Assembly: GCA_964472295.1 (NCBI GenBank)
Contig: CAYYJQ010000007.1
Span: 302 to 64,301 of the forward strand
From: an uncultured Thermodesulfobacteriota bacterium
GTDB taxonomy: Bacteria > Desulfobacterota > GWC2-55-46 > JADFVP01
DNA: 64,000 nucleotides
Direction: 5' to 3'
The notes beneath the pieces are model-generated. The model saw only the letters and a program-made list of their open reading frames with translations, made no database searches and was not told the DNA's origin. Below, in pieces: positions 9,038-62,368 of this stretch; within the stretch, counting starts at the first letter, position 1; every line of letters starts with the position of its first letter. A program made the position numbers and the translations under genes.

Positions 9038-9280
9038 AGGGGCGGGCTTCGCCCGCCAAAAGAAAAAAATTTCCTTACTTTCTTTTAGAAAAAAGAAAGT
9101 TTTTCAATCGTAACGTACAGGCCCTTGTTCTTATGAGACCTGCGCCTTTATAGGCGAAATCTTCACATAAGCGGCTACGTCAAAGAAAACCAATAGGACT
9201 TGGCGCTCAATAGCGGTAGGGTGGGCACTGCCCACCAAACAAAAAAGGCAACAAAAGAGTGAGAAGCGGGCCTTGCCCGC
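9038..9280. repeat. Family-1 mosaic palindromic repeat cluster (modules A', D, A, A') between RND adaptor and pump genes
   Basis: GGGCGGGCTTCGCCCGCC 9038-9056. D hairpin CCTTACTTTCTTTTAGAAAAAAGAAAGT 9072-9099. D tail CAAAGAAAACCAA 9181-9193. GGTGGGCACTGCCCACC 9220-9236. GCGGGCCTTGCCCGC 9266-9280. Confidence 0.8.
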
Positions 9281-9308
9281 GTATTAAAAAACATACCAAC
9301 AGGAAACC

Positions 9309-12300
9309 TTGGATACCGTAAAATTTTCCATAACAAAGCCAGTTACCATTATCGTTGGCGTAATCTTCGTGGCGCTCTTCGGCCTCATAGGGCTCTTCTC
9401 CATGCCCTATCAGCTGAGCCCCAATGTCTCCATGCCAGAGATAGCCGTCACAACTGCCTGGCCCGGCGCCACGCCCTTTGAGGTCGAACGCGACATCATC
9501 GAGGAGCAGGAAAAGGTATTAAAGGGAATCCCCGGGCTTGAGACAATGGAGAGCACGTCCTCGGACAACCTCGGCTCCATTACCCTTCGTTTTTCCATAA
9601 AGACCGATGTTGACGACGCACTACTTAGAGTCTCGAACAAACTCAACGAGGTGCGCAGATATCCCCAGAACGTGGAACGCCCAATCATAAACTCCACGGG
9701 CACGGAGACGGCCCCTGTCATCTGGAACATACTAAAACCCCTTCCCGGCAACAAGAGACCTGTCTATACCTACAGGACCTTCTTTGAGAACGAAGTCCGC
9801 CAGCGCCTTGAGCGCGTCGAGGGCGTGGCCGATCTCATGGTGGCAGGCGGACGCGAAAAAGAGATGCACGTCGTCATAAACCCCTCGCGCCTTGCCTCCT
9901 ATGGTATATCCATTACGGAACTCTCGGCAATCCTGTCTGCTGACAACGTGAATATTTCAGCCGGCACAATGGGCGTTGGGCGAAGAGAGTTCCGTATCAG
10001 GACCATTGGAGAGGCGCGCACCCCGGAAGAACTCGGCAGGATAGTCATACGCGACACCGGTCAGGAACGGACCCTCCTTAAGGACATCGCCACCCTTAAG
10101 TATGGATACGAAAAACCCGACGTAGCCATGTTCCAGGATGGCAATCAGGGCATAGCCGTTGGCATAAAGCCCGCGCCAGACGCCAATATCCTTGAACTCA
10201 CGGACCGCGTGGAAAAGGTCGTAAAAGACCTTAACAAGGGGCTCCTCAAGGACAATGGCCTCTCCTTCACATGGGTCTATGACCAGCGCCCCTATATTAA
10301 CGGCGCCATAGGACTAGTGAGAAAGAACATGCTCATAGGGGGCGCGCTGGCCATAATAACCCTCCTTGTCTTTCTCGGGAGTTTTTCCTCCACACTTGTC
10401 GTGGCCGTGGCCATACCCATAAGCGTCATAGGGACATTTCTCTTCATGGCCCTCCTTGGCAGGAACCTGAACGTCGTGAGCCTCGCTGGCATAAGCTTTG
10501 CCGTGGGTATGCTCGTCGATAACTCCATTGTTGTCCTTGAGAATATCGACAGGCACCTTCACATGGGCAAAAGCCCCTTCAAGGCCGCCTATGACGGCAC
10601 TGTGGAGGTCTGGGGCGCTGTCTTCGCATCCACCATGACCACTGCCGCAGTCTTCCTCCCCGTTATCTTCATGAAGGAAGAGGCGGGTCAGCTCTTTCGA
10701 GACATCGCCCTTGCCATTACCTTCAGCGTGGCCATAAGCCTCGTCGTCTCCGTCACTGTCATCCCCATGCTCTCAAAGAGGCTCCTTGCCATCTCTCTCA
10801 AGCGAAGCAAGGGCAAGAAGACTGGTCTGGGCAGATTCTCATCCATTGGAAAGGGACTCACAGGCGCGTACATGGGCCTTGTGGGCTGGGCCATAAAGAC
10901 TCCCCTTACGCGCATTGTAACCATCTTCACCCTCCTCATACTCGCCGGGGCCTCTGTCTTCTTTCTCATGCCCAAGATGGAGTATCTTCCACAGGGCAAC
11001 CGCAACCTCCTCATGAACATACTTATCCCGCCGCCCGGTATCTCCTACACCGAGAGAAGGGACATCTGGAAGGAAAATATCTTCAAGACCATAGAGCCCC
11101 ACCTCCATAAAGAGACAGGAGGCCTGCCCGCCATAAAACATACCTTTTACGTGGGCTCCGGCGAGTTCACCCTCTTTGGCGCCATGTCCGAAGACCCCTC
11201 GCGGGTGCGCGAACTCATACCCCTCTTCAGACGAGCCATATTCAACATTCCGGGCTTTTTCGGCATCAGCACTCAGGCCAGCATCTTCCAGACACGGCTC
11301 GGAAGAGGACGCACCATTGACATTGACTTTAGCGGCCCGGAGATAACGAACCTTGTCAGGGCCGCGGGAGCAACCTACGGAATGCTTAAAAAAGAGATAC
11401 CAGAGGTGCAGATAAGGCCCGTGCCCTCTCTTGAGATTCAGTTCCCGGAGGTGAGGATAGTGCCGGACCGCCCGAGGCTCAGGGCCGCGGGCATGAGCGT
11501 GGCAGACCTTGGGATAATAACGGACGTTCTCATGGACGGGAGAAAGATAGCAGACTTCAAGCCAGAGGGGAGCAAGAAGATAGACCTTGTCTTAAAGACC
11601 CCGGAGGGCCGCATCGCCACGCCAGAGGACCTCTACGAGACTCAGATAACAACCCCCCTTGGCCCTGTCGTGCCCCTCTCGTCCCTCTCCACTCTTGAGC
11701 GCACAAACGGCATAACAAAGATAAGGCATCTTGAACGGCTCCGAACAATAACACTTCAGGTAACGCCTCCCCGGTACATACCCCTTGAGTCTGTAATGGA
11801 CGGCATTCAGGACAAACTCATACCTGGCATAAAAAAGGCCGGCATCCTCCGCGGCGTGAACGTGCGCCTCAGCGGAGCCGCCGACAAACTCACGGAGATG
11901 AGAAAATCGCTTCAATGGAACTTTATCCTCGCCGCAGTCATTACCTATCTCCTCATGTCAGCGCTCTTTGGAAACTTCATCTATCCCATCATAGTCATGT
12001 TCACCGTGCCCCTTGCAGGCGCCGGCGGGTTCATAGGCCTGAGACTCGTAAACCTCTTCATAGCCCCCTCGCCCCTTGATATACTCACCATGCTGGGGTT
12101 CATTATACTCATAGGCGTTGTCGTGAATAACGCCATACTCATAGTGCACCAGTCACTCAACTTCATACGCCTTGAGGGCATGGAACACCGTGAGGCCGTG
12201 CTCAAGGCAACGCGCACAAGGCTGAGGCCCATATACATGAGCGCCTTTACGAGCGTCCTTGGCATGTTGCCCCTTGTGGTGGCCCCGGGGCCGGGCTCCG

Positions 12301-12440
12301 AACTATACAGGGGCCTTGGTAGCGTAGTCCTCGGGGGACTCGCCATATCAACCATCTTTACGGTCCTCGTAATACCCGCGCTCCTCATGTTTGTAATAAG
12401 GCTTGAAAAACCGGGCAGCGCCATGGAAAAACACCTCTAA
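9309..12440 (+). CDS. Efflux RND transporter permease (AcrB/HAE1 family)
   Basis: 1043 aa with 12 TMS and two large periplasmic loops, AcrB-like. TTG start preceded by AGGAAAC. Confidence 0.9.
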   Translation: MDTVKFSITKPVTIIVGVIFVALFGLIGLFSMPYQLSPNVSMPEIAVTTAWPGATPFEVERDIIEEQEKVLKGIPGLETMESTSSDNLGSITLRFSIKTDVDDALLRVSNKLNEVRRYPQNVERPIINSTGTETAPVIWNILKPLPGNKRPVYTYRTFFENEVRQRLERVEGVADLMVAGGREKEMHVVINPSRLASYGISITELSAILSADNVNISAGTMGVGRREFRIRTIGEARTPEELGRIVIRDTGQERTLLKDIATLKYGYEKPDVAMFQDGNQGIAVGIKPAPDANILELTDRVEKVVKDLNKGLLKDNGLSFTWVYDQRPYINGAIGLVRKNMLIGGALAIITLLVFLGSFSSTLVVAVAIPISVIGTFLFMALLGRNLNVVSLAGISFAVGMLVDNSIVVLENIDRHLHMGKSPFKAAYDGTVEVWGAVFASTMTTAAVFLPVIFMKEEAGQLFRDIALAITFSVAISLVVSVTVIPMLSKRLLAISLKRSKGKKTGLGRFSSIGKGLTGAYMGLVGWAIKTPLTRIVTIFTLLILAGASVFFLMPKMEYLPQGNRNLLMNILIPPPGISYTERRDIWKENIFKTIEPHLHKETGGLPAIKHTFYVGSGEFTLFGAMSEDPSRVRELIPLFRRAIFNIPGFFGISTQASIFQTRLGRGRTIDIDFSGPEITNLVRAAGATYGMLKKEIPEVQIRPVPSLEIQFPEVRIVPDRPRLRAAGMSVADLGIITDVLMDGRKIADFKPEGSKKIDLVLKTPEGRIATPEDLYETQITTPLGPVVPLSSLSTLERTNGITKIRHLERLRTITLQVTPPRYIPLESVMDGIQDKLIPGIKKAGILRGVNVRLSGAADKLTEMRKSLQWNFILAAVITYLLMSALFGNFIYPIIVMFTVPLAGAGGFIGLRLVNLFIAPSPLDILTMLGFIILIGVVVNNAILIVHQSLNFIRLEGMEHREAVLKATRTRLRPIYMSAFTSVLGMLPLVVAPGPGSELYRGLGSVVLGGLAISTIFTVLVIPALLMFVIRLEKPGSAMEKHL

Positions 12441-12449
12441 AAAAAAATC

Positions 12450-12600
12450 TCGCGGGCTGGGTTTCGTCCATTATTGGTTTTCTTTGTCTTACTTTCTTTT
12501 TTCAAAAAGAAATTAAGAAAGTCTTTTCATATTCTTCTGTCTGCGAAACCCACCCTCTCCTTCTCTCTTTTTTTGTTTTTTGTGGGCAAAGCCCACGACC
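12450..12600. repeat. Family-1 repeat cluster (A', D, B-fragment, A') between convergent RND pump and apt genes
   Basis: D module TTGGTTTTCTTTGTCTTACTTTCTTTTTTCAAAAAGAAATTAAG 12475-12516. GTGGGCAAAGCCCAC 12582-12596. GCGAAACCCACCC fragment. Confidence 0.75.
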
Positions 12601-12647
12601 ACACCCATCTTTTTTTCTTCTTCCGCGGCACCACCCCAAAAAAAAAC

Positions 12648-13166
12648 TCAGAACTTAAGGAGCGAGAAGACCGGGCTATCGCCGAGTTTTTCCCTGCCCT
12701 TCAGTTCTTCAAGTTCTATTATAAAGGCGCACTCCACTATCTCGCCGCCCATGTCCCGCACAAGGTCGGCCACCGCCCCTGCCGTGCCGCCGGTCGCGAG
12801 GAGGTCGTCGGCAATTACTACCCTCTGCCCCTTTTCTATGGCGTCCTGGTGTATCTCCAGCGTGTCCTCGCCGTACTCAAGGCTGTAAGTGGCGCTGTGC
12901 GTCTTATGGGGGAGTTTGCCAGGTTTTCTCACAAGAACGACTCCGGCGCCGAGTTTATAGGCAAGGGCCGCCCCGATGATAAAACCCCTTGCCTCCACTC
13001 CCACAACAAGGTCAATATCCTTGCCAACATACCTGTGACCAAGCAGATCAACAGTGCGTTGAAAACACTGTGCGTCCTTGCAGAGCGTTGTGATGTCCTT
13101 AAAAAGTATGCCTTTTTTTGGAAAATCAGGTATATTTCTTATTGATTCCTTTAATTTTTCCGTCAT
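12648..13166 (-). CDS. apt: Adenine phosphoribosyltransferase
   Basis: 172 aa with PRPP-binding motif [13 protein letters not shown] and overall Apt similarity. Confidence 0.9.
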
Positions 13167-13214
13167 TCTCGCTCTCCTTTATCTCTTTTTTTTATCTCCC
13201 CCTGCTAACCGCCT

Positions 13215-14479: not shown

Positions 14480-14480
14480 A

Positions 14481-15062
14481 TCAGAGCGCTAACTTCATGA
14501 CAACAAAGCCGCCTATAATGATGATGACAAGCGCAAGGGTGAGTATATTAAAGTATTTGTCTATGAAAAGACGTATCGGCTCGCCGTACTTCCTGATAAG
14601 GAGGGCGATTATAAAAAACCTCGCGGAACGGCTTACAAAAGAAGCCGCGATGAATACGAAAAAATTAATCCTGAAGGCCCCCGCCGTAATGGTGAAGACC
14701 TTGTAGGGTATGGGAGTAAAACCCGCTATTGCCACTGCCCATGCGTCGTAATGCCTGTAAAGTTCTTGAATATAGGCGTATTTATCCGTAAGTCCGTAAA
14801 GGTCGATTATATGAGTCCCCACGAACTCCATGAAGTAAAGCCCTATGCCATAGCCGAATGCCCCGCCAAGCACGGAGCCCACCGAGGCGATTAGCGCGAA
14901 GTACAGGGAGCGCGCCGGGATGGAAAGGGCAAGGGCAATGAGGAGCACGTCCGGGGGAATGGGAAAAAAAGACGACTCCGCAAAGGCCAGCACAAAAAGG
15001 GCCCATGCCCCGTAAGGAGTGTGCGCCCAGCTAAGAACCCAGTTGTATAAACGCCTCGGCAT
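14481..15062 (-). CDS. YqaA/DedA-type membrane protein (VTT domain)
   Basis: 193-aa polytopic protein with similarity to YqaA family proteins. Confidence 0.65.
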   Translation of the reverse strand: MPRRLYNWVLSWAHTPYGAWALFVLAFAESSFFPIPPDVLLIALALSIPARSLYFALIASVGSVLGGAFGYGIGLYFMEFVGTHIIDLYGLTDKYAYIQELYRHYDAWAVAIAGFTPIPYKVFTITAGAFRINFFVFIAASFVSRSARFFIIALLIRKYGEPIRLFIDKYFNILTLALVIIIIGGFVVMKLAL

Positions 15063-15075: not shown

Positions 15076-15190
15076 CTTATTTTCTTTTAGAAAAAGAAAG
15101 TAAGACAAAGAAAACCAATGCCAGCGGCCCTTGGCCGCTGGATTTTGTAGAGAAGTCTCGCAGGTTGGGTAGAGCAAAGCGAAACCCGAC
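15076..15190. repeat. Family-1 repeat cluster (D-rc, C, B) between yqaA-like and pcm genes
   Basis: CTTATTTTCTTTTAGAAAAAGAAAGTAAGACAAAGAAAACCAA 15076-15118. CCAGCGGCCCTTGGCCGCTGG 15121-15141. GTTGGGTAGAGCAAAGCGAAACCCGAC 15164-15190. Confidence 0.8.
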
Positions 15191-17885: not shown

Positions 17886-18086
17886 TCAGTAGATGGGAGC
17901 CTTTCCCATTGGTTTTCCTTGATGTGGTTTCTTAAGCGGTGAGATGCTACTATCATGCGTCCGAGTCTCCATGTAGAGAGGAGCAAGGCCATTCGATTGA
18001 AAGACTATCTTTTTTCCAAAAGAAAGTGGAAAAAAAAGTGGTAAGGGACGTGAAGATATTTTCTCTCTTTTTTATTCGGGGGTATT

Positions 18087-20731: not shown

Positions 20732-20998
20732 AGAGACCCTTGCATTGGTTTTCATTGTCCTGCTTTTTCCCTGATGTCTAAAGTGGCGTTATTATGGTCC
20801 CCTGTTGGTTTTTTCTTTGACACAGTTTCTTTCTGGTAAGATCTGCCTACCATGCGTCATGACCAAAAAATCCATAAAGACATTGCCACTCGGGAAAAAA
20901 AACTTTCTTTTTTCAAGAGAAAGCAGGAAAATTTCTTGCACTCTTTCCTTAAAGATGTTATTTTTTTATGATTACTAAATCCTGGAGGAAGATGCGCC

Positions 20999-21190: not shown

Positions 21191-21216
21191 TAATATTTGG
21201 AAAAGAAGATGATTAA

Positions 21217-21251
21217 GACCGCCTGCCCGAAGGGGCAGGCGGTCTTTTTTG
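21217..21251 (+). terminator. Rho-independent terminator downstream of rpmB
   Basis: GACCGCCTGCCC-gaag-GGGCAGGCGGTC perfect 12-bp stem followed by TTTTTTG. Confidence 0.8.
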
Positions 21252-21299: not shown

Positions 21300-21385
21300 A
21301 GAAAAGTCTGATTAATTCAGACTTTCCAGCAACGCATGGACGCGCCGCCATCTTCGACAACTGTAAGTTATTGAAAATGTGAGGG
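21300..21385 (+). repeat. Family-2 ~90-bp structured repeat, copy 1 (downstream of rpmB terminator)
   Basis: GAAAAGTCTGATTAATTCAGACTTTCC perfect 10-bp-stem hairpin (21301-21327), then CAGCAACGCATGGACGCGCCGCCATCTTCGACAACTGTAAGTTATTGAAAATGTGAGG. ~80 % identical to copy 2. Confidence 0.75.
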
Positions 21386-21461
21386 AAAGGGAACCCGCGT
21401 TTTTCCTTTCCCGTCTCTCCTTAATTCAGGGACGAATCATTCAGAGGTTTCTTAAAATACA

Positions 21462-21566
21462 TTGGGTTTCGCGGACGCTCCACTTATCCTACAATGCCTG
21501 TTAAAACCATTCACCCTGAGCCCTGAGCTTGCCGAAGGGTCGAAGGGTGCCGGGCAGTGACCACCC
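21462..21566. repeat. Family-1 modules (B-rc plus degenerate A) between rpmB and ridA
   Basis: TTGGGTTTCGCGGACGCTCCACTTATCCTACAA 21462-21494 matches the B module at 48112-48146. GGTGCCGGGCAGTGACCACCC 21546-21566 is a degenerate A. Confidence 0.6.
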
Positions 21567-28040: not shown

Positions 28041-28389
28041 GCGGGCTTTGCCCGCAAAGGATAAGAAAAAAAGAGAGAAAGGGTGTTGCTGGCTGGCTTC
28101 GCCTACAAAAGCCTTGTAGGGTGGGTGGAGCGTCAGCGAGACCCATCACGACAAAAATGGTGGGCAGTCCACCCTACCCGGCTACCCGGCTACGCCTTCA
28201 CGAGTTCACCACCGGCCTCTACCCAGGCGTTGAACCCGCCAAGGAGGGCAGTAAGTAGGGTGGGCACTGCCCACCAAAAAACGGGGGCAACTGGCAGGTT
28301 GGGTCGAACGCGTAGCTAAACCCAACAAATAGGGGGATAAGAGCAAAGCCTGGCCCATACCCCACCAAAAAACGGACTCTGGCCGCTGG
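28041..28389. repeat. Family-1 repeat cluster (A', B, A-degenerate, A, B-like, C-fragment) downstream of moaA
   Basis: GCGGGCTTTGCCCGC 28041-28055. CTTGTAGGGTGGGTGGAGCGTCAGCGAGACCCATC 28113-28147. GGTGGGCAGTCCACCC 28159-28174. GGGTGGGCACTGCCCACC 28258-28276. GGTTGGGTCGAACGCGTAGCTAAACCCAAC 28298-28326. CTCTGGCCGCTGG 28377-28389. Confidence 0.8.
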
Positions 28390-28410
28390 GAAAAAACACG
28401 TAAGATAAGC

Positions 28411-29982: not shown

Positions 29983-32265
29983 ATGGACATAAAAAACCTC
30001 ATTGAAGATATAAAGGGCAGTCGCGAGTTCAGGGACGTGGTGCACCACGAGGTAATCCCCGCGAGGCACGCACGGCACGCCCCCTGGCCGGAGGGGATTT
30101 CGCCGGTTATAAGGGAGAAACTCTCCAAAAATGGCATAAAAGAGCCCTATCTCCACCAGTCAATGGGCATGGAGGCCCTCCTTGACGGCGCGAATGTAGT
30201 CATAATGACGCCCACTGCAAGCGGCAAGTCTCTCATATACCAGGCCCCTATTCTGCAGGCCATCCTTGACGACTCCTCTGCAACGGCACTCTACATCTCG
30301 CCCCTTAAGGGTCTGCTCCACGACCAGAAGCGCTCCTTCGATGAACTTAGGGAGGGCGTTATCGCCAATGAAGTTGAGACACGGCCCCTTAAGCGGGTCC
30401 GTCCCCTTGGCCTTGCTGAAATCTATGACGGAGACACCACGGCGTACCGCAAGAAGAAGATACGCGAGGCCCCCCCTGCCCTCATCCTTACAAACCCGGA
30501 CATGGTCCATCTTTCCATAAATGCCTATCACGAGCAGTGGGCCGCGTTTCTCTCACGCCTTCGCTACGTGATAATAGACGAGATTCACACATACAGGGGC
30601 GTCTTTGGCTCTCACGTGGCAAATGTAATGAGGCGGTTCCGGCGGGTTCTTGAACGCCACAACTCTGCCCCCAGGTTCATGGCCTGCACGGCCACCATAG
30701 CAAACCCCCTTGAGCACGCCTCCATGCTCACGGGCCTTGACTTTGAACTCATCCGTGAGAACGGCGCCCCTTCCGGGCGGCGTAACTTCATCTTCATAAA
30801 TCCCGCTCCCGGGCAAAGCCCCTATACCCTTGCCACAAGGCTATTTACGCGCTCCATCGCCTCTGGCCACCGCACCATAGCCTTTACGCGCGCCCGCAAG
30901 ATTACGGAACTACTCTACTCATGGGTATCTCAGGGCGCGCCTGAACTCGGCGGCAAAATATCGGCCTACCGCGCGGGTTTTCTCCCTGAAGAACGGCGTG
31001 ACATAGAAAAAAAACTCTTCTCAGGTGACCTTCAGGGCGTTATCTCCACAAGCGCCCTTGAACTTGGCGTGGACATTGGAGGGCTCGATGTATGCGTTCT
31101 CGTAGGCTACCCCGGGAGCGTGAACTCCACCTGGCAGATGGGCGGGAGGGCCGGAAGATCTAATCGCGATTCTCTCATCGTGCTGATTGCCCTTGAGGAC
31201 GCCCTTGACCAGTACTTCATGCGAAGCCCTGGTGATTTTTTCCGAAGCCCTGTAGAGGCCGCTGTCATTGACATGGAGAACCCCGTAATACTAAAGCCCC
31301 ACCTTCTCTGCTCGGCCTCGGAGACCTATCTCAAATCAACTGACAGGGTCTATGACGTGCCCGCCTACAAGGGCCTCCTTCAGGAACTTCAGTCCGAGGG
31401 AAAGGTCCGGTACTGGCAGAAGGGAGACATCTGGTACCCGAGAAAACGGTTTCCACAACGCGAGATCTCCATCAGGGCCACTGGCGCGGTATACCGCATC
31501 ATAAAAAAGGGCGGCGCCCTCATAGGGGAGTCGAGTTCCAGGAAGGTCTTCCGCGACCTCCACCCCGGGGCCGTGTACCTTCACAGAGGCGCTGCCTACA
31601 GGGTTGTAAGACTGGACCTTGGGGAGAGGACGGTAACGGTTCTTCCGGCAGATGATGTAAATTACCATACAGTTGCCATAACCAATGAAGAAACCGAGAT
31701 AATTTCAGTTGAAGAAAAGAAGAGGCTCAAGGCCCTCCAACTCCTGCATGGCTCCATACGGGTCACCGAAGAGGTGACGGGCTACAGGCGCAAAGAAGTC
31801 TATACCGAGAGAAACCTTGGAGAGTTTCCACTGGACCTGCCACCCACGGTCTTTACCACAAAGGCCATCTGGATGGAAGTTGACGAGGATATTCTTGAAG
31901 AGGTCCAGAAGAAAGGTTTCAACGCGGGAGGCGCCCTGCACGCCCTTGAGCACGCGGCCATCGCAACGCTTCCACTATATGCCCTCTGCGACCGCATGGA
32001 CCTTGGCGGCGTAAGTTACCCCTTTAACGCGGAACTCGGCGCGCCGGCAATATTTATTTATGACGGCCATGAGGGAGGAGTTGGCCTTACAAAGAGGGGC
32101 TTTTACTCTGTCCGCGAGTGGTTCGCGTCCACCCTTAAACTCATGGACGAGTGCGCCTGCGATGTATCCTGCCCGGCCTGCACACAGGATCCCTGGTGCG
32201 GTAACGGCAACGAACCACTGGATAAACGCGGGGCCATAATGATACTTAAAAGATGGCTTGAGTAA
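29983..32265 (+). CDS. DEAD/DEAH-box helicase with C-terminal DUF1998 zinc domain (SftH/MrfA/YprA-like)
   Basis: Walker A TPTASGKS, DEIH box, helicase C domain. C-terminal four-Cys cluster CACDVSCPAC...C typical of DUF1998. Confidence 0.85.
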   Translation: MDIKNLIEDIKGSREFRDVVHHEVIPARHARHAPWPEGISPVIREKLSKNGIKEPYLHQSMGMEALLDGANVVIMTPTASGKSLIYQAPILQAILDDSSATALYISPLKGLLHDQKRSFDELREGVIANEVETRPLKRVRPLGLAEIYDGDTTAYRKKKIREAPPALILTNPDMVHLSINAYHEQWAAFLSRLRYVIIDEIHTYRGVFGSHVANVMRRFRRVLERHNSAPRFMACTATIANPLEHASMLTGLDFELIRENGAPSGRRNFIFINPAPGQSPYTLATRLFTRSIASGHRTIAFTRARKITELLYSWVSQGAPELGGKISAYRAGFLPEERRDIEKKLFSGDLQGVISTSALELGVDIGGLDVCVLVGYPGSVNSTWQMGGRAGRSNRDSLIVLIALEDALDQYFMRSPGDFFRSPVEAAVIDMENPVILKPHLLCSASETYLKSTDRVYDVPAYKGLLQELQSEGKVRYWQKGDIWYPRKRFPQREISIRATGAVYRIIKKGGALIGESSSRKVFRDLHPGAVYLHRGAAYRVVRLDLGERTVTVLPADDVNYHTVAITNEETEIISVEEKKRLKALQLLHGSIRVTEEVTGYRRKEVYTERNLGEFPLDLPPTVFTTKAIWMEVDEDILEEVQKKGFNAGGALHALEHAAIATLPLYALCDRMDLGGVSYPFNAELGAPAIFIYDGHEGGVGLTKRGFYSVREWFASTLKLMDECACDVSCPACTQDPWCGNGNEPLDKRGAIMILKRWLE

Positions 32266-32290
32266 AGAAGAAGAAGAAGAAGAAGAAGAA
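32264..32290. repeat. (GAA/AAG)n trinucleotide microsatellite immediately after helicase stop codon
   Basis: taa-AGAAGAAGAAGAAGAAGAAGAA-aggg, about 7-8 uninterrupted triplet units. Confidence 0.8.
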
Positions 32291-32297: not shown

Positions 32298-32449
32298 GCG
32301 GGCTTGGCCCGCGAAAGGACAAGAAAGAACGGAAAAAGAGTTGACTTTGTGGACTTGGCCCGCAAAAAGACAGAAAGATTTCCTTACTTTCTTTTAGAAA
32401 AAAGAAAGTAAGACAAAGCAAACCAGTACCAGCGGCCTCTGGCCGCTGG
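32298..32449. repeat. Family-1 repeat cluster (A', A', D-rc, C) between convergent helicase and GGDEF genes
   Basis: GCGGGCTTGGCCCGC 32298-32312. GTGGACTTGGCCCGC 32350-32364. CCTTACTTTCTTTTAGAAAAAAGAAAGTAAGACAAAGCAAACCA 32382-32424. CCAGCGGCCTCTGGCCGCTGG 32429-32449. Confidence 0.8.
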
Positions 32450-37020: not shown

Positions 37021-37063
37021 ATGGGCAAAAATTAAGAGCCCCCTTTTAATAAAGGGGGCTCTT
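37021..37063 (-). terminator. Rho-independent terminator downstream of leuB
   Basis: AAGAGCCCCCTTT-ATTA-AAAGGGGGCTCTT hairpin (minus-strand reading) followed by AATTTTT. 23 nt after the leuB stop. Confidence 0.7.
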
Positions 37064-37085
37064 AGGCACAAAATATGAAAAAAAA

Positions 37086-39043: not shown

Positions 39044-39093
39044 CTTTTGTTCCCCTTTTTTTTAATTTGACAGATTGAGTATATTTTTTTCAA

Positions 39094-39290
39094 TGGGCAG
39101 TGCCCACCGATTGGTTTTCTTTGTCTTACTTTCTTTTTTCCAAAAGAAAGTAAGAATATCTTTTTTCTTCTGGCGGGCAGTGGCCGCCCTATCCTACCCT
39201 TCTTTCATCTTCCTGTCTTCTGGCGGGCAGTGCCCACCCTTCCTCCCTCCCCCTTCTTTCATCTTCTTTAGTATCAGGCCTTTTCCGCTG
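39094..39290. repeat. Family-1 repeat cluster (A, D, A, A) with ~50-bp tandem duplication between leuD and methyltransferase genes
   Basis: TGGGCAGTGCCCACC 39094-39108. D module 39111-39154. GGCGGGCAGTGGCCGCC 39172-39188. GGCGGGCAGTGCCCACC 39222-39238. Two copies of the unit TCTGGCGGGCAGTG...CTTCTTTCATCTTC. Confidence 0.8.
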
Positions 39291-41345: not shown

Positions 41346-41431
41346 TGAAATTCCCCTTTAAAGAAAATTGATAACATTTTGATATTAAGGATGAAAAATG
41401 TTGGCGCAAGGCTTACATCCCTTTAGCCGTA

Positions 41432-41485
41432 GGGTGGGCTGTGCCCACCAAAATGTAGGATGGGTAAAGCAAAGCGAAACCCATC
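41432..41485. repeat. Family-1 modules (A, B) between leuC and leuA
   Basis: GGGTGGGCTGTGCCCACC 41432-41449. GTAGGATGGGTAAAGCAAAGCGAAACCCATC 41455-41485. Confidence 0.75.
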
Positions 41486-43044: not shown

Positions 43045-43132
43045 TTACTTACCTCTTTAAGGACTTAAAAGTCTCGAAAATAGCGCCGCGTCCCTGCGCC
43101 GCTGGAAAGTCTGAGTTTATCAAACTTTCCTC
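43045..43132 (-). repeat. Family-2 repeat, diverged copy 3 in inverted orientation (pssA-leuA intergenic)
   Basis: GCGCCGCGTCCCTGCGCCGCTGGAAAGTCTGAGTTTATCAAACTTTCC aligns with the reverse complement of copy 1 (GGCGGCGCGTCCATGCGTTGCTGGAAAGTCTGAATTAATCAGACTTT). AATTACTTAC matches AATAACTTAC. Confidence 0.55.
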
Positions 43133-48079: not shown

Positions 48080-48251
48080 GGTGGGCAGTGCCCACCATAC
48101 GAGCCTTTTTTGTTGGGTTTCGCTTACGCTCCACCCATCCTACAAGTTTTTCCAGCGGGCGTAGCCAGCTGGCATTAATTTTCTTTGTCTTACTTTCTTT
48201 TTTAAAAGAAAGTAAGGAAATCTTTTTTCTTTTTGGCGGGCGAAGCCCGCC
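48080..48251. repeat. Family-1 most complete composite copy (A, B-rc, C, D, A') between ilvB and ilvD
   Basis: GGTGGGCAGTGCCCACC 48080-48096. GTTGGGTTTCGCTTACGCTCCACCCATCCTACAAG 48112-48146. CCAGCGGGCGTAGCCAGCTGG 48152-48172. TTTTCTTTGTCTTACTTTCTTTTTTAAAAGAAAGTAAG 48178-48215. GGCGGGCGAAGCCCGCC 48235-48251. Confidence 0.85.
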
Positions 48252-57987: not shown

Positions 57988-58021
57988 CTTGATATTATTC
58001 TCCCTCTTCTGAATTCTTTTT

Positions 58022-58105
58022 GGAAAGTCTGATTAATTCAGACTTTCCCGCAACACAGGGATGTGTTGCCATTTTCGGCAACTGTAAGTTGCCTGAAATG
58101 TAAGG
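58022..58105 (+). repeat. Family-2 ~90-bp structured repeat, copy 2 (rpsB-tsf intergenic)
   Basis: GGAAAGTCTGATTAATTCAGACTTTCC hairpin. Second perfect hairpin GCAACACA-ggga-TGTGTTGC. Third hairpin GGCAAC-tgtaa-GTTGCC. Confidence 0.75.
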
Positions 58106-59110: not shown

Positions 59111-59293
59111 GGTATTCCTCCTTTTGCGGTTAAGATCCTCCGCGCCGGTGATGACATGAGCCCGCACATGCGGACACCGCAAAGAAAACGCGGCGCGTGT
59201 GTATTTAATCGTGTATTATTATCACATTATGGAAGGGGCATGCAAGAAGTTTTTTACAAAAAAGGAGGGAGCGCCGCTGAGTCATTGCCTGCC

Positions 59294-59905
59294 CTAATCA
59301 GCGGAAGTCCCGAGCGGCCAGGTCATCTCCACGCTTCCGAGGACGCTCTTTATGGTGAGATTGAGAGTAGTTGCCCCTAGGGCCGGAAGAGGGACGTTGC
59401 CGGGGACGGAAAGGCGGGGAAAACGTACTACATAGGCAGCGCTCCAGAGGTCCAGATAGGGGAAGAACTCGCCCCTCAGTGGGTCGGCCCTCACAAGGCG
59501 CGTAATGGAGAGAGGCTCGGTCTTTGTGCCCCTGTCATCCGAGAGGAATATCCTCCATGCTGAATCCTCTGCGTCAAGGTTATTAAGGGCGGCCTCCGAG
59601 GTATGGACGGAGAGAAAGAACTCGGAGTACTCCTTCGCGGCCCTCTTGTCCGTGGCAAGCATACGGGCCCTGTCCTTATCGGAGAGGCCGAAACTCCTGG
59701 CATAATAATCCCTGTAGGCAGACTTGAAAGAAGGCCCCCTGTAGGTGGCAACCACGCTGAGCCGTTCCTCAAGGCCATTAAATAACTTCGCCTCGCGCGT
59801 CCATCTCTTGAGCTCAACATTATAGCGCCTTCTTGCGCCAGTCATGGGACCGGCGCAGGAAGCGAGAAGGAGGGCCAGAAGGAAAAGCGTCAGGGCTCGC
59901 TTCAC
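59294..59905 (-). CDS. Hypothetical lipoprotein
   Basis: GTG start at 59905 gives VKRALTLFLLALLLASC lipoprotein signal. The longer track ORF would overlap the upstream gene by ~90 nt. Confidence 0.45.
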   Translation of the reverse strand: MKRALTLFLLALLLASCAGPMTGARRRYNVELKRWTREAKLFNGLEERLSVVATYRGPSFKSAYRDYYARSFGLSDKDRARMLATDKRAAKEYSEFFLSVHTSEAALNNLDAEDSAWRIFLSDDRGTKTEPLSITRLVRADPLRGEFFPYLDLWSAAYVVRFPRLSVPGNVPLPALGATTLNLTIKSVLGSVEMTWPLGTSAD

Positions 59906-59963
59906 GAGTATCCCCTGCCCTGTTTTCTTTATCCCATATTCCGCGGCCTTGCGCGCCACCTGC

Positions 59964-60812
59964 CTACTCAGCAAGCCGGAACCCCACGGTCGGCGTGAAG
60001 AGGTTGGACTCCTTGGCATGACGGTAGGTAGTGCGAAGTTTACCTGGCGGGTCAATTACAGAGCCGCCCCTTATGGTCCGCCACTCAGAGAAATCTGGAC
60101 CAAAGGGGTCTTCCTCGGGGCTGTTCTTGTAGTAATCAAAGTCAAAGTTGTCCTCAACCCACTCCCATACATTGCCGCTCATATCGTAAATCCCAAGGGC
60201 ATTGGGTTTTTTCTCTTTTCCGTAATGGACCTTGCCCTCGGAGTTGTAGGCAAACCAGCCATAGTCCTCAAGGTCATCTATGTTGTTCGTGCCGGCCCAC
60301 CTGATGTTCTTTCCCCTCTCCCTGGCGGCATACTCCCACTCCGCCTCTGTGGGCAGGCGGTAAAAACCGTCGACAAGTTTATTCAGTTCTTCTATGAAAC
60401 GGTTTGCCCAGGTCCAGTTGATATTGGTTAGCGGCATCTTTGGGTCAAGGTCAGGCTTGAAGGGAAAACCCATGACCGCCTCCCATAGGCCGTTTGTTAC
60501 CTCTGCCTCGCCGATGTAATAATCCGAGAGGCATACCTTGTGTTGAGGACGCTCATCTTCGTCGCCCTGACCAGTGAAGTCTCCCATCTCAAAACAACCT
60601 CCCTCCACATAGACCATCTTTATGGGGGGCATGTTCTTTCTTCTCTCCTCGCGTTCCTTTTTTTTCTTCTCTTCCGCCAGTTTTTTCCTCTCTGCCCTGG
60701 TAAGGGGCTTGTCGCTCAAGGGCTTGTGCTCGACCGCGAGGCCCCTGATAGGCATGAAGAGAAGTGATGACAGGATAACAACGGCAAAGATAAGGAAAGA
60801 CAACCTCTTCAT
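59964..60812 (-). CDS. Formylglycine-generating-enzyme (SUMF1/FGE-sulfatase) family protein
   Basis: Signal peptide MKRLSFLIFAVVIL. FGE-family hallmarks (RLPTEAEWEYAAR, GNVWEWVED, RGGS). Lys/Glu/Arg-rich linker. Confidence 0.75.
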   Translation of the reverse strand: MKRLSFLIFAVVILSSLLFMPIRGLAVEHKPLSDKPLTRAERKKLAEEKKKKEREERRKNMPPIKMVYVEGGCFEMGDFTGQGDEDERPQHKVCLSDYYIGEAEVTNGLWEAVMGFPFKPDLDPKMPLTNINWTWANRFIEELNKLVDGFYRLPTEAEWEYAARERGKNIRWAGTNNIDDLEDYGWFAYNSEGKVHYGKEKKPNALGIYDMSGNVWEWVEDNFDFDYYKNSPEEDPFGPDFSEWRTIRGGSVIDPPGKLRTTYRHAKESNLFTPTVGFRLAE

Positions 60813-60870
60813 AACAACATACCTCCATGAAAGAGAATTAATCTGTAAAGCCATTAGTGACTCCCATAAT

Positions 60871-62283
60871 CTACTTGAAGAGCACAAGCTGAGGGGCCTT
60901 TATCTCGTCCTCAACCTTTACGGGGTATCTCCCCGTGAAGCAGGCGTCGCAAAAGCCCACGTCCTGGCCCACGGCCCTGTAGAGGCCCTCGAGGCTCAGA
61001 TAGCGAAGCGTATCCGAGGTGATGTAGTTGTTTATCTCCTCGATCTTGTGGCTCGAGGCGATGAGTTCTTCTTTGGTTGGCGTGTCTATGCCGTAAAAAC
61101 AGGGCGAGAGGCTTGGCGGCGAGCTTATCCTCATGTGTATTTCTCTTGCCCTGGCATCGCGTATCATCTTTACTATCTTACGGCTCGTGGTTCCCCGCAC
61201 AATGGAGTCGTCTACAACAACCACCCTCTTGCCCTTGATGACCTCCTTCACGGCATTGAGCTTGAGTTTTACTCCAAAGTGGCGTATGGAGTCCTGGGGC
61301 TCGATAAATGTCCGGCCCATGTAATGGCTCCTTACAAGGCCCTTGTCAAAGGGTATGCCAGACTCCTCGGCATAACCAATGGCCGCGGGCACGCCAGAGT
61401 CTGGCACGGGGATGACTATATCGGCGTCCACGGGGTTTTCCTTCGCGAGCATGCGTCCAAAGTTCTTTCTTACGGCATGTACGCTCTTGCCGAAGATAAA
61501 GGAATCAGGCCTGGCAAAGTAGATAAGTTCGAAGATACAGTGCCTGGGGTCCTGTTTCTTGAAGGGCTTGTAGGAGGTAAGCCCCTTTTTATCCATGACG
61601 ATTATCTCGCCCGGCTCCACGTCCCTTATGTATGTGGCCTCGATTAGGTCAAGGGCGCAGGTCTCAGAGGCGACTACAATTGAGTCACGGAGCCTTCCAA
61701 GACAGAGTGGCCTGAAGCCGGAGGGGTCGCGGGCGGCCACCATTGTGCCCCTGTCCGTGAGAAATACGAGCGAAAAAGCGCCCTTCAGTTTGCCAAGGGC
61801 AAAGGTTATGCGGTCTATGAGGTTCCGTTCCCTGCACGAGGCCATGAGGTGCACAATGGTCTCGGTGTCCATGCTGGACTGGAATATGGAGCCATGTGCC
61901 TCGAACTCGGCGCGTATGAGGAATGAATTTACGATGTTTCCGTTATGGGCTACTGCGATGCCGCCGCGGGCGTACTCTACGATAAAGGGCTGTGCGTTCT
62001 TTATGTGGCTCTCCCCGGCAGTGGAGTAGCGCACGTGACCAATGGCCGAGGAGCCGGAGAGCCCGGCGATGCTCTCATTATCAAAGACATCGGCCACAAG
62101 GCCCATGCCCTTGTGAGAGTACATGCGCGTGCCGTCGCTTGAGGCAATGCCAGCGCTCTCCTGCCCCCGGTGCTGAAGACCGTAGAGGCCAAGATAGGTG
62201 AGGTTGGCGGCCTCGGCGTGACCGTAGACGCCAAAGACCCCACACTCGTCGTGAAAACGGTCGTCGCTTTCGTGAATATCCAT
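60871..62283 (-). CDS. purF: Amidophosphoribosyltransferase
   Basis: N-terminal Cys (ECGVFGV) glutamine amidotransferase class II, PRT domain and C-terminal Cys cluster. Confidence 0.92.
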
Positions 62284-62351
62284 AAGGTTACTTATAAACT
62301 ATTTTACGCAATTAACTGCTTTTTAAACCTTATTAAATCTTAATCTGTTTT

Positions 62352-62368
62352 GGTGGGCAGTGCCCACC
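62352..62368. repeat. Solitary family-1 A module between purF and purL
   Basis: Perfect GGTGGGCAGTGCCCACC palindrome identical to 48080-48096. Confidence 0.6.

What the first reader, a model, noticed from the sequence alone, without database searches (positions are those of the whole stretch)
9038..62368. REP/BIME-like mosaic of palindromic modules in about 10 intergenic regions (family 1)
At least four distinct short palindromic modules recur across the window.
- Module A: GGTGGGCAGTGCCCACC and its variants GCGGGCTTNGCCCGC.
- Module B: GTAGGATGGGTRRAGCRWAGCGAAACCCAWC, an imperfect hairpin.
- Module C: CCAGCGGCC-NNN-GGCCGCTGG.
- Module D: TTGGTTTTCTTTGTCTTACTTTCTTTT-N4-6-AAAAGAAAGTAAG, an AT-rich 13-bp-stem hairpin with a conserved ACAAAGAAAACCAA tail.

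The modules occur in both orientations and in shuffled combinations at 9038-9280, 12450-12600, 15076-15190, 21462-21566, 28041-28389, 32298-32449, 39094-39290, 41432-41485, 48080-48251 and 62352-62368.

This modular shuffled architecture is what defines bacterial interspersed mosaic elements, but the module sequences do not resemble the E. coli REP/BIME consensus that I remember.

Many copies sit inside operons: between the RND adaptor and pump genes, leuD and the methyltransferase gene, leuC and leuA, and ilvB and ilvD. Others sit between convergent genes. There they could act as mRNA stabilisers, attenuators or terminators, as protein-binding sites (IHF, gyrase or a REP-associated tyrosine transposase), or as recombination hotspots.

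The density is about 1 cluster per 6 kb, high for a housekeeping region.
Basis: seen in the sequence. Interest (0 to 1): 0.75.

Follow-up and report, generated by a model that had tools for sequence, protein, structure and literature searches.

The report
REP-like hairpin repeat clusters between genes
The intergenic DNA of this uncultured Thermodesulfobacteriota genome carries clusters of short hairpin repeats: two are classic GTAG-headed REP elements whose sequences also occur in several other phyla (one of them there beside its transposase gene), and they have been added onto an older, undescribed AT-rich hairpin unit, so this is a new member of a well-known kind of element.

Summary
All four modules sit at the stated coordinates, far above chance (A: 7 matches against 0.01 expected), and every copy lies in the 13% of the window that is non-coding. 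Three further D copies were missed (17909-18027, 20745-20925, and a split copy at 9074-9195).

The modules are not freely shuffled. They keep one order and one polarity: A2 - D - C - B - A.

A and B are GTAG-headed REPs. The A 17-mer occurs in cyanobacteria, Planctomycetota, Poribacteria, Thermodesulfobacteriota and gamma-proteobacteria. It is preceded by GTAG in 110 of 150 copies. [quoted passage not shown]

D is an AT-rich 13-14 bp hairpin with a constant 5' flank. Its stem is kept by compensatory changes. It is present at orthologous sites in a sister genus of about 76% nucleotide identity, and IS110-family elements have inserted into its loop in two metagenomic lineages.

A and B are absent from about 41 kb of that sister genus, so they look like later additions to an older A2-D-C unit.

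Whether this genome encodes a RAYT could not be tested. Any RNA-level function is inference. Verdict: a new member of a known kind, of moderate interest.

The parts
9041..9057 (+). A2 hairpin GGCGGGCTTCGCCCGCC between the RND adaptor and pump genes
   Evidence: folds at -9.5 kcal/mol as DNA
9074..9195 (-). Long, split D. Hairpin at 9074-9100, about 82 nt of insert, then the conserved flank CAAAGAAAACCAAT at 9181-9195. The strand given is that of the T-rich GGTTTTCTTTG reading.
9216..9236 (+). A-type REP GTAGGGTGGGCACTGCCCACC followed by an A-run
9266..9280 (+). A2 variant GCGGGCCTTGCCCGC
12474..12517 (+). D: flank TTGGTTTTCTTTG plus a 13-bp AT-rich hairpin, downstream of the phosphoribosyltransferase gene in a convergent gap
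   Evidence: orthologous D in the sister genus
12582..12596 (.). A2-like hairpin GTGGGCAAAGCCCAC
15076..15118 (-). D. Its 3' arm runs into the Shine-Dalgarno region of the gene at 14481-15062.
15121..15141 (.). C hairpin CCAGCGGCCCTTGGCCGCTGG
15160..15190 (+). B-type REP, GCAG-headed variant GCAGGTTGGGT..ACCCGAC
17909..18027 (+).
20745..20925 (+).
21461..21492 (-). B-type REP, with a degenerate A-like hairpin at 21546-21566
28041..28055 (+). A2 hairpin GCGGGCTTTGCCCGC after the moaA stop codon
28116..28147 (+). B-type REP GTAGGGTGGGTGGAGCGTCAGCGAGACCCATC
28159..28179 (-). A-type REP with a 1-nt deletion (GGTGGGCAGT-CCACCCTAC), inverted relative to the B at 28116
28255..28275 (+). A-type REP GTAGGGTGGGCACTGCCCACC
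28294..28326 (+). B-type variant GCAGGTTGGGT..ACCCAAC. A half C sits at 28377-28390.
32298..32363 (+). Two A2 hairpins (32298-32312 and partial 32351-32363), after a (GAA)n tract
32383..32426 (-). D
32429..32449 (.). C hairpin CCAGCGGCCTCTGGCCGCTGG
39092..39108 (-). Degenerate A, occupying the position that C holds elsewhere
39111..39155 (+). D between the methyltransferase gene and leuD
   Evidence: orthologous D in L176
39172..39238 (-). Two A variants (39172-39188 GGCGGGCAGTGGCCGCC and 39222-39238 GGCGGGCAGTGCCCACC) in pyrimidine-rich spacers
41429..41449 (+). A-type REP GTAGGGTGGGCTGTGCCCACC between leuA and leuC
41455..41485 (+). B-type REP GTAGGATGGGTAAAGCAAAGCGAAACCCATC, head-to-tail with the A at 41429
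48080..48100 (-). A-type REP (GTAT head) between ilvD and ilvB
48112..48143 (-). B-type REP
48152..48172 (.). C variant CCAGCGGGCGTAGCCAGCTGG
48175..48216 (+). D
   Evidence: orthologous in L176
48235..48251 (-). A2 hairpin GGCGGGCTTCGCCCGCC
   Evidence: orthologous in L176
62352..62371 (-). Solitary A-type REP (GCAG head) between the purL-like gene and purF

Best explanation
The clusters are two layers of intergenic hairpin repeats of the REP kind.

**Layer 1, the older unit (A2-D-C).** This is a unit of about 110 nt. It consists of a GC hairpin A2, a purine-rich spacer, the AT-rich 13-14 bp hairpin D with its constant flank (GGTTTTCTTTG on the T-rich strand), and a second GC hairpin C. It is shared with a sister genus at the same intergenic sites. 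Its sequence and hairpin are under constraint. It is a repeated target in its own right, because IS110-family elements insert into its loop.

**Layer 2, the younger elements (A and B).** These are GTAG-headed REPs: short non-autonomous elements that a REP-associated tyrosine transposase (a HUH/Y1 enzyme) recognises as single-stranded DNA hairpins with a 5' GTAG and cuts and rejoins. In this lineage they have been added next to the existing hairpins, usually as head-to-tail A/B pairs. The resulting clusters look like BIMEs.

**Effect on transcripts.** The clusters lie inside operons and are transcribed. They fold into up to five consecutive independent stem-loops. A, B and A2 are each followed by an A-run on the GTAG strand, so these three do not form a hairpin-plus-U-tract terminator in either direction, and the cluster as a whole presents none on the sense strand of its operon. 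That is probably why they are tolerated there. Their most likely effect on the host is as barriers to 3'-exonucleases or as processing points that uncouple the stability of neighbouring cistrons.

**Shown:**
- the repeat families, their intergenic restriction, and the fixed order;
- the GTAG head;
- the RAYT linkage of A in other genomes;
- hairpin covariation in D;
- orthologous conservation of A2-D-C against absence of A/B in the sister genus;
- IS110 insertion into D.

**Inferred:**
- that a RAYT in this genome moved A and B;
- that insertion is directed next to existing hairpins;
- any RNA-level role.
For: **Repeat families and location.**
- Copy numbers far exceed chance, and all copies are intergenic.
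- Order and polarity are largely fixed.

**A as a RAYT-served REP.**
- GTAG precedes 110 of 150 oriented copies.
- RAYT ORFs lie directly beside the motif in L021, L118, L077, L035 and L087.
- Two of these match NCBIfam NF047646 at E = 1.5e-54 and 5.4e-52 and Pfam Y1_Tnp.
- The L021 RAYT is flanked by inverted GTAG-REPs.
- Reciprocal test: starting from a named Anabaena RAYT found by protein search, its gene is flanked by GTAGGGTGGGCATTGCCCACC and GGTGGGCAATGCCCACCCTAC.

**B.**
- It folds as GTAG plus a 5-7 bp outer stem, a 3x3 internal loop and a 2-bp inner stem (7 bp only in the 41455 and 15160 copies), and shows an A-T to T-A swap between copies.
- B-like copies occur in 9 of the 119 A-loci, against 0 for a control regex.

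**D.**
- In 22 copies, 95.7% of cells are paired. Four pairs have changes on both sides. 0 of 500 shuffles reach the covariation score.
- Homologues occur in other lineages with GC 0.40-0.61.
- IS110-family transposases are inserted exactly in the loop, with both junctions read in L169.

**Comparison with relatives.**
- Sister genus at about 75-78% nucleotide identity: D or A2-D-C is present at PRT-3', PCMT|VTT, purM|purN, lactB|rpmB, adaptor|pump, ilvD|ilvB and MT|leuD.
- The ilvD|ilvB composite is 88% identical, while repeat-free spacers are at shuffled level.
- No A or B copy occurs in about 41 kb of the sister.
- The cluster at GGDEF|helicase is absent in the sister, where the gap is 10 nt.
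- A third relative, L178, has none of the modules.

**Transcript structure.**
- The ilvD|ilvB spacer RNA folds into five separate hairpins, z = -5.5.
- Canonical terminators of a different look exist at 21215-21246 and 37033-37064.
Against: - No RAYT gene was found in the window or in any locus from this lineage (hmmsearch). The rest of the genome could not be searched.
- Only 4 of about 9 A copies carry an exact GTAG. The others have GTAT or GCAG, or none.
- Inverted REP doublets (REPINs), common for this motif in other phyla, are rare here.
- The high conservation of A2-D-C between genera fits a host-selected function at least as well as a selfish-repeat reading.
- D, A2 and C have no GTAG or CGTC tag and no known mobilising enzyme.
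- The sister-genus sample is only about 41 kb, so 'A/B absent' is a sample, not a whole-genome statement.
- There is no expression data.
Confidence: 0.62

Rival explanations
1. The A2-D-C unit is a host-selected intercistronic element rather than selfish DNA. One version is an mRNA-processing and stabilising cassette: a long perfect AT-rich stem as a double-strand RNase site, flanked by GC hairpins that protect the new 3' and 5' ends. Another version is a sequence-specific protein-binding site. The A/B REPs merely accumulate beside it.
For: - The unit is conserved at orthologous sites across genera of about 76% identity. At ilvD|ilvB it is 88% identical, more than the flanking coding DNA, while other spacers are unalignable.
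- The hairpin is kept by compensatory changes.
- The D core stays AT-rich and nearly invariant in genomes with GC from 0.40 to 0.61.
- The unit sits inside operons.
- It forms five independent hairpins in the transcript.
Against: - The unit occurs in both orientations relative to transcription and also between convergent genes.
- It is absent from a third relative with the same operon (L178) and from the GGDEF|helicase gap of the sister genus.
- Copies decay and duplicate partially, giving the long forms.
- Within-genome homogenisation, or constraint from a mobilising enzyme, would also keep the sequence conserved.
- There are no RNA data.
Confidence: 0.2
2. Each cluster is a copy of one composite miniature transposon (MITE) that is moved as a unit by a classical DDE transposase. 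The partial clusters are decayed copies.
For: - Order and polarity of the modules are largely fixed, and the size is 110-240 nt.
- Pairs of clusters align over 50-68 nt at 90-95% identity.
Against: - There are no terminal inverted repeats, because the two ends (A2 against C, B or A) are different hairpins.
- No target-site duplication is visible.
- Modules occur alone (A at 62352, A+B at 41429).
- A/B are absent while A2-D-C is present at the same sites in the sister genus, so the parts have separate histories.
- A is shared with other phyla that lack C and D.
Confidence: 0.08
3. The hairpins are ordinary locally evolved regulatory structures (intrinsic terminators, attenuators, operators) that only look like a repeat family because of shared constraints.
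For: - Several sit at gene ends or between convergent genes.
- The scanner flags D in its T-rich orientation, and C, as weakly terminator-like.
- One D abuts a ribosome-binding site.
Against: - Near-identical 17-55 nt sequences occur at unrelated loci, against 0-0.01 expected by chance.
- None of A, B or A2 has a T-run after the stem on the sense strand.
- The genome's canonical terminators look different.
- A is identical to RAYT-flanking repeats in other phyla.
- Presence/absence differs between relatives.
Confidence: 0.05

Closest known systems
GTAG-tagged REPs served by RAYT / TnpA-REP (E. coli REP, Pseudomonas and Stenotrophomonas REPs; the GTAG superfamily of Di Nocera et al. 2013, PMC3733652; Nunvar 2010, PMC2817692; Messing 2012, PMC3479197)
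   Same: - Modules A and B are 21-33 nt imperfect palindromes with a 5' GTAG (or GTAT / GCAG).
- They are strictly extragenic and present in many copies.
- They occur as singletons, head-to-tail pairs and hybrid pairs.
- The A sequence flanks RAYT genes in inverted orientation in other genomes.
- Hybrid dimers and REPs placed beside other palindromes are described in PMC3733652.
   Different: - The host is an uncultured Thermodesulfobacteriota lineage for which no REP family is described.
- The exact A and B strings are not in the text or held supplements of PMC3733652, nor in any paper of the library.
- A cognate RAYT in this genome has not been shown.
- Copies here carry a 3' A-run and are embedded in purine-rich spacers.
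Bacterial interspersed mosaic elements (BIMEs) of E. coli
   Same: - Clusters combine more than one REP type with other conserved motifs in a reproducible order.
- They are located between genes of an operon or at gene ends.
   Different: - REPs here do not alternate regularly in orientation.
- The non-REP motifs are themselves hairpins (A2, C, D) rather than short linkers.
- There is no sequence similarity to BIME motifs.
- Binding by IHF, gyrase or Pol I is untested.
REPINs (inverted REP doublets; Bertels & Rainey 2011, PMC3116915)
   Same: - The same class of RAYT-dependent elements.
- In other phyla the A motif forms inverted doublets 13-30 nt apart.
   Different: In this window A is mostly a singleton or paired head-to-tail with B. 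Only 28116/28159 and 28159/28255 are inverted pairs.
Untagged stem-loop repeats and small MITEs transcribed within operons (for example Neisseria Correia/NEMIS, ERIC, RUP; recalled from the literature, listed in PMC3733652)
   Same: - D with its flanking hairpins is a tag-less, AT-rich, perfectly paired stem-loop repeat.
- It lies in transcribed spacers and is conserved within a group of related genomes.
   Different: - No terminal inverted repeats or target duplications.
- The unit is much shorter.
- No sequence similarity.
- RNase processing has not been tested.
REP-targeting insertion sequences of the IS110 family (for example IS621 in E. coli, ISPpu9 / ISPpu10 in Pseudomonas putida; my own knowledge, not checked here)
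   Same: An IS110-family element is inserted precisely in the loop of the D hairpin in two metagenomic lineages. IS110 members insert into REPs in the same way.
   Different: The target is the untagged D hairpin, not a GTAG REP. It was seen only in related metagenome contigs, not in the window.

Membership tests
REP (GTAG superfamily) | Short (20-40 nt) imperfect palindrome able to form a stem-loop | tested here: met
   - A: 7-bp stem with a 3-nt loop, -8 kcal/mol.
- B: an outer stem of 5-7 bp plus a 3x3 internal loop and a 2-bp inner stem.
- Source.
REP (GTAG superfamily) | Conserved GTAG tetranucleotide at one end of the palindrome | tested here: met
   - Window, A: exact GTAG at 9216, 28255, 41429 and 28159(-); GTAT at 48080(-); GCAG at 62352(-).
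- Window, B: GTAG in 4 of 6 copies and GCAG in 2 of 6.
- Other genomes: GTAG in 110 of 150 copies.
- A2, C and D have no such tag.
REP (GTAG superfamily) | Many dispersed copies restricted to extragenic DNA | tested here: met
   About 9 A and 6 B copies in 64 kb, all in non-coding DNA. Genome-wide counts were not obtainable.
REP (GTAG superfamily) | A RAYT gene flanked by the same REPs in the same genome | not testable with these tools
   - Met for the A sequence in other genomes: L021, L118, L077, L035, L087 and Anabaena L184.
- No RAYT in the window or in any same-lineage locus.
BIME (E. coli sense) | REPs in regularly alternating orientation | tested here: not met
   - A/B pairs at 41429/41455, 48112/48080 and 28255/28294 are head-to-tail.
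- Only 28116/28159 and 28159/28255 are inverted.
BIME (E. coli sense) | Conserved non-REP motifs between REPs in a reproducible order | tested here: met
   The order A2-D-C-B-A, with conserved spacers, recurs in the D-containing clusters and in the sister genus.
BIME (E. coli sense) | Binding by IHF, DNA gyrase or Pol I | not testable with these tools
   Needs biochemistry. By eye I saw no clear IHF-like consensus in the spacers, but I ran no scan for it.
REPIN | Two REPs in inverted orientation with a short spacer, forming one long hairpin | tested here: not met
   Rare in the window (see the BIME orientation row). Common for the same motif in other phyla, for example L040, L041, L051, L064, L074 and L089.
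MITE | Terminal inverted repeats and target-site duplication | tested here: not met
   The ends of the clusters are different hairpins, and no flanking direct repeats are seen.
Intrinsic terminator | GC-rich hairpin followed directly by a U-tract in the transcript | tested here: not met
   - A, B and A2 are followed by A-runs on the GTAG strand and preceded by T-runs on the other strand.
- Only D in its T-rich orientation, and C, get weak terminator-like calls.
- True terminators lie at 21215-21246 and 37033-37064.
Known structured RNA (Rfam) | Match to a curated covariance model | tested here: not met
   - No gathering-level hit in the whole window.
- Only chance-level hits around the long D forms in the window and in L180.

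The most novel reading that the evidence does not exclude
The A2-D-C unit may not be junk. It could be a conserved, previously undescribed intercistronic cassette of a group of Thermodesulfobacteriota, consisting of a sequence-constrained AT-rich perfect hairpin bracketed by GC hairpins. It would act on polycistronic mRNAs as a processing and stabilising point, or on DNA as the site of a dedicated binding protein or recombinase.

In addition, the GTAG REPs beside it may belong to a RAYT-REP system whose 17-21 nt recognition sequence is shared almost unchanged across at least five phyla. That implies either horizontal spread or extreme conservation of specificity. Either would sit uneasily with the prevailing picture of strictly vertical, lineage-specific RAYT-REPIN co-evolution (bioRxiv 10.1101/2021.07.10.451892).
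Probability: 0.2. Interest if true: 0.6.

Novelty: new member of a known kind. Interest (0 to 1): 0.4.

Why it matters
1. It extends RAYT-type REPs to an uncultured Thermodesulfobacteriota lineage. It also gives a concrete case where younger REPs pile up on an older hairpin unit, which is one way BIME-like mosaics could arise.

2. The same REP core with RAYTs of 55-68% identity occurs in cyanobacteria, Planctomycetota and Poribacteria, and the core alone in Thermodesulfobacteriota and gamma-proteobacteria. This is a usable test case for whether RAYT-REP systems move horizontally or keep their DNA specificity over very long times.

3. The D hairpin is a compact, sequence-constrained repeat that IS110-family (bridge-RNA-guided) recombinases have chosen as a landing site. 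That makes it a natural target set for studying the specificity of those enzymes.

4. For annotation, these repeats produce spurious small ORFs (for example the string WWAVPTLR read through a REP) and mark rearrangement-prone spacers.

Tried and rejected
**Searches that found nothing.**
- Rfam: no hit at gathering level in the whole window. At E <= 1 around the long D forms, only chance hits.
- Structured-RNA reading of the long D form: the fold z-score is -0.33, so it was rejected.
- Literature search for the exact A, B and D strings: nothing relevant. The strings are also absent from the Di Nocera supplements.

**Looking for a RAYT in this organism.**
- A regex and a profile search of all ORFs in the window and in every fetched locus found RAYTs only in other phyla.
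- The protein-database search gave at least 1269 RAYT clusters, but none of the named top 120 is from Thermodesulfobacteriota.
- Attempts to extend the source contig beyond the window gave no new sequence.

**Uninformative comparisons.**
- Same-strain contigs L001 and L002 are 99.96-99.98% identical to the window. They differ only in (GAA)n length, so they say nothing about presence or absence of the repeats.
- The metagenome scan with the D core returned 54 stretches, about two thirds of which are low-complexity chance matches.

**Tests with no clear result.**
- Orientation bias of A/B relative to the strand with negative GC skew: about 7 against 6, no bias.
- Repeats at both breakpoints of the inversion relative to the sister genus: D lies at the PRT-side junction only. 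No module was found at 3417-4264, so repeat-mediated inversion is not supported.

Full report

Yes. An unbiased repeat search recovers them as families (D2 = A, D3/D7 = D, D13 = D+C, D15 = GTAG+A).

Against dinucleotide-preserving shuffles:
- The A core GGTGGGCASTGCCCACC (up to 2 mismatches) has 7 sites against 0.01 expected.
- The D hairpin has 4 sites against 0 expected.
- A B pattern has 3 sites against 0.01 expected.

With a gene map built from the long ORFs, 87% of the window is coding, and every module copy lies in the remaining 13%.

- RND adaptor | pump.
- ilvD | ilvB, leuA | leuC, and methyltransferase | leuD.

Other flanking genes are moaA, a metallophosphoesterase, RidA, RelA/SpoT and purF.

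**2. Corrections to the description**

*(a) The modules are not freely shuffled.* On the purine-rich strand the fullest cluster (ilvD|ilvB, 48080-48251) reads:

A2 (GGCGGGCTTCGCCCGCC) - AAAAAGAAAAAAGATTTC - D hairpin - ACAAAGAAAAYYAAT - C - B - A

The other D-containing clusters are sub-stretches of this:
- The clusters at 15076-15190 (D-C-B) and 32298-32449 (A2-A2-D-C) follow the same order and relative polarity.
- 39092-39238 has A-type hairpins in the A2 and C positions.
- 9041-9280 reads A2-D-(degenerate)-A-A2.
- The cluster at 28041-28389 (A2, B, inverted A, A, B') and the A-then-B order at 41429/41455 depart from it.

*(b) D also exists in a long form.* About 70-85 nt separate the constant flank TTGGTTTTCTTTG from the hairpin. 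This form occurs at 9074-9195, 17909-18027 and 20806-20925. In the sister genus the long form is visibly a partial tandem duplication of a D-containing unit. It has no Rfam match and no unusual fold.

*(c) A2 is not a variant of A.* It has no GTAG head, and it travels with D rather than with A (section 5).

**3. What A and B are**

Both begin with GTAG or a near variant, followed by a hairpin. As single-stranded DNA:
- A folds as GTAG plus a 7-bp stem and a 3-nt loop.
- B folds as GTAG plus an outer stem of 5-7 bp, a 3x3 internal loop, a 2-bp inner stem and a loop.
- Copies of B differ by an A-T to T-A swap.

The GTAG-REP/RAYT papers found by search include PMC3479197 and PMC8266576.

The hosts were cyanobacteria, Planctomycetota, Poribacteria, Desulfobaccales and other Thermodesulfobacteriota, gamma-proteobacteria, Chloroflexia and Verrucomicrobia.
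- When copies are oriented as GGTGGGCACTGCCCACC, 110 of 150 are preceded by GTAG.
- Many form inverted doublets 13-30 nt apart.

*RAYT genes beside the motif.* Five of these loci carry a RAYT ORF directly beside the motif: L021, L118, L077, L035 and L087.
- Two full-length ones match NCBIfam NF047646 'REP-associated tyrosine transposase' at E = 1.5e-54 and 5.4e-52, and Pfam Y1_Tnp.
- The L021 gene is bracketed by GTAGGGTGGGCATCGCCCACC on one side and GGTGGGCAGTGCCCACCCTAC on the other.

*Reciprocal test.* The RAYT clade has at least 1269 clusters, typically 191 aa. Named members come from Paludisphaera, Anabaena, Moorena, Stigonema and Crocosphaera. Fetching the Anabaena subtropica gene shows GTAGGGTGGGCATTGCCCACC upstream and GGTGGGCAATGCCCACCCTAC downstream.

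*B in other genomes.* B-like elements (GTAGGTTGGGT...ACCCAAC) occur in 9 of the 119 A-loci, mostly cyanobacterial. A control pattern gave 0.

So A is the cognate REP of a widespread RAYT clade, and B belongs to the same GTAG class.

Di Nocera et al. (PMC3733652) already describe a GTAG superfamily of 24 families in 8 phyla. It includes cyanobacteria, Planctomycetes and a deltaproteobacterium, with hybrid dimers and REPs lodged beside other palindromes. The exact strings found here are not in that paper or its held supplements, nor in any paper of the library.

**4. What D is**

D is a 13-14 bp perfect AT-rich hairpin (CTTACTTTCTTTT - loop - AAAAGAAAGTAAG) with a constant flank.

A metagenome scan with its 19-nt core returned 54 stretches. 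About 17 of these are true homologues, because the other hairpin arm, which was not part of the query, is also conserved. They come from lineages with GC 0.40-0.61 and lie next to housekeeping genes.

Additional copies in those loci and in the sister genus carry different outer stems that remain complementary:
- TCTTAC / GTAAGA
- CTCCAC / GTGGAG
- TCCTGC / GCAGG
- TTTTGC / GCAAA

On 22 copies:
- 95.7% of cells pair.
- Four pairs change on both sides.
- No shuffle out of 500 reaches the covariation score.
- Sliding the partner collapses pairing to 53-72%.

In two metagenomic contigs an IS110-family element (Pfam DEDD_Tnp_IS110 plus Transposase_20) sits exactly in the D loop. In L169 both junctions can be read...TTTTTTCCAAA | IS | AAAAGAAAGTAAG. 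From my own knowledge, IS110 members target REPs in the same way. This marks D as an abundant, sequence-defined repeat.

**5. History from relatives**

*The source organism.* The window's proteins sit on a 69,714-bp NCBI contig. A relative with at least 90% identical ketol-acid reductoisomerase is labelled Thermodesulfobacteriota bacterium.

*The relatives.*
- Same-strain metagenome contigs are uninformative.
- A sister genus (GCA_964407495.1 and JGI contigs: L176, L177, L180, L181, L183) is 75-78% identical in coding DNA.
- A third relative, L178, is about 74% identical.

*What the sister genus carries.* D or the A2-D-C unit is present at seven of the window's D sites:
- after the PRT stop codon
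- PCMT|VTT
- purM|purN
- lactB|rpmB
- adaptor|pump (degenerate)
- ilvD|ilvB
- MT|leuD

It lacks the cluster at GGDEF|helicase, where only 10 nt separate the genes. At leuA|leuC it carries a different, D-like insert.

*Degree of conservation.* The ilvD|ilvB composite is 88% identical between the genera. Repeat-free spacers are no better than shuffled sequence.

*A and B.* No A or B copy occurs in about 41 kb of the sister genus. L178 has none of the modules.

So A2-D-C is older, shared and constrained. A and B are later additions in the window's lineage, placed beside the existing hairpins. Another Thermodesulfobacteriota MAG (L107) also shows an A REP with an A-run next to a D-like hairpin.

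**6. How it probably works**

*A and B (inferred).* They are non-autonomous elements moved as single-stranded hairpins by a RAYT. The enzyme is shown next to the same sequence in six other genomes but not in this one.

*The clusters (shown).* They lie inside operons. As RNA, the ilvD|ilvB spacer forms five independent stem-loops (z = -5.5).

*Terminator reading.* A, B and A2 are each followed by an A-run on the GTAG strand. In neither transcription direction, therefore, do these three present a hairpin followed by a U-tract, and no module does so on the sense strand of its operon. The weak scanner calls for C and for D in its T-rich orientation fall on other strands. The genome's real terminators look different: 21215-21246 after rpmB and 37033-37064 after leuB. 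That explains why the clusters are tolerated within operons.

*Host effect (inferred).* The most likely effect is a barrier to 3'-exonucleases, or a processing point that decouples the stabilities of neighbouring cistrons.

*An alternative.* The strong conservation of A2-D-C leaves room for a real host function, which is the main rival.

*Rejected readings.* A unit-MITE reading and an 'ordinary local terminators' reading fit poorly:
- there are no terminal repeats or target duplications;
- the modules have separate histories;
- A is identical across phyla.

**7. Comparison with known systems, and verdict**

*Membership in the GTAG-REP class.*
- Met: palindrome, GTAG head, extragenic multi-copy distribution.
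- Not testable here: a cognate RAYT in the same genome.

*Other families.*
- The E. coli BIME definition fails on alternating orientation, though the reproducible mosaic order is BIME-like.
- The REPIN doublet form is rare here.
- D, A2 and C are untagged stem-loop repeats with no known enzyme.

*Verdict.* This is a real, well-defined repeat system. It is best filed as a new member of a known kind, with two less ordinary aspects:
- a REP core shared nearly unchanged across phyla together with its RAYT clade, against the usual picture of vertical, lineage-specific co-evolution;
- a constrained AT-rich hairpin unit that serves both as the scaffold for REP clusters and as an IS110 landing site.

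Noticed in passing
window 21300-21384 (+), 43048-43131 (inverted), 58021-58105 (+): A second, unrelated repeat family of about 82 nt at 76-87% identity. It begins with an 11-bp inverted repeat, GGAAAGTCTGA..TCAGACTTTCC. The 43048 copy lies directly upstream of leuA and is absent from the same spacer in the sister genus (L176) and in L178.
   Followed up: partly
window 32264-32290: A (GAA)n trinucleotide tract lies right after the helicase stop codon. One extra unit (3 nt) is the only indel between the window and the same-strain metagenome contigs L001 and L002, which are 99.96-99.98% identical.
   Followed up: yes
window about 3400-12650, against L180 10517-20109: The block from PilZ through the ABC transporter, TetR and OEP genes to the RND adaptor and pump is inverted relative to the sister genus. 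D lies at the PRT-side junction in both genomes. No module was found at the other junction (3417-4264).
   Followed up: partly
window about 3700-3890; L180 10700-10960: A C-rich, degenerate short-repeat region (motifs such as CCCCGTTGCCC and CCCCTCTATCCCCTGTC) lies next to the PilZ gene in both genera, at the inversion junction. Its nature is unknown.
   Followed up: no
L169 (reverse strand 335-2010); L167 162-1292: IS110-family insertion sequences are inserted exactly in the loop of the D hairpin in two metagenomic lineages. Both junctions are readable in L169.
   Followed up: yes
L003-L121, L184: The REP core GGTGGGCA[C/G/T]TGCCCACC with a GTAG head is shared almost unchanged by cyanobacteria, Planctomycetota, Poribacteria, Thermodesulfobacteriota and gamma-proteobacteria; 191-aa RAYTs of 55-68% identity were found beside it in the first three. 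This is unexpected if RAYT-REPIN pairs are strictly vertical and lineage-specific.
   Followed up: partly
L077 3-446; L035 679-1029: Stop-to-stop ORFs read through REPs and give recurrent pseudo-peptides (WWAVPTLR from A, VGWVSFVNPTY from a B-like element). These are a source of spurious small 'hypothetical proteins'.
   Followed up: no
L138 about 2050-2200, L168 1-330, L141, L173 (PJEL01 metagenome contigs): In another lineage, D is the 3' part of a longer unit of about 130 nt: a GC hairpin, then ...GTTTTAGAGCGAYACAACAAACTGGTGTTA..., then D. The unit is repeated in tandem and dispersed. Its nature is unknown.
   Followed up: no
L107 3320-3410: Another Thermodesulfobacteriota MAG has an A-type REP with an A-run about 45 nt from a D-like hairpin (GCTTTCTTTTCGAGAAGAAAGC). 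This suggests the A-beside-D arrangement recurs in the phylum.
   Followed up: no
window 21215-21246 (+) and 37033-37064 (-): Two canonical intrinsic terminators, each with a 14-bp stem and a T-run, lie after rpmB and leuB. They show that the organism uses ordinary terminators that look unlike the repeat modules.
   Followed up: yes
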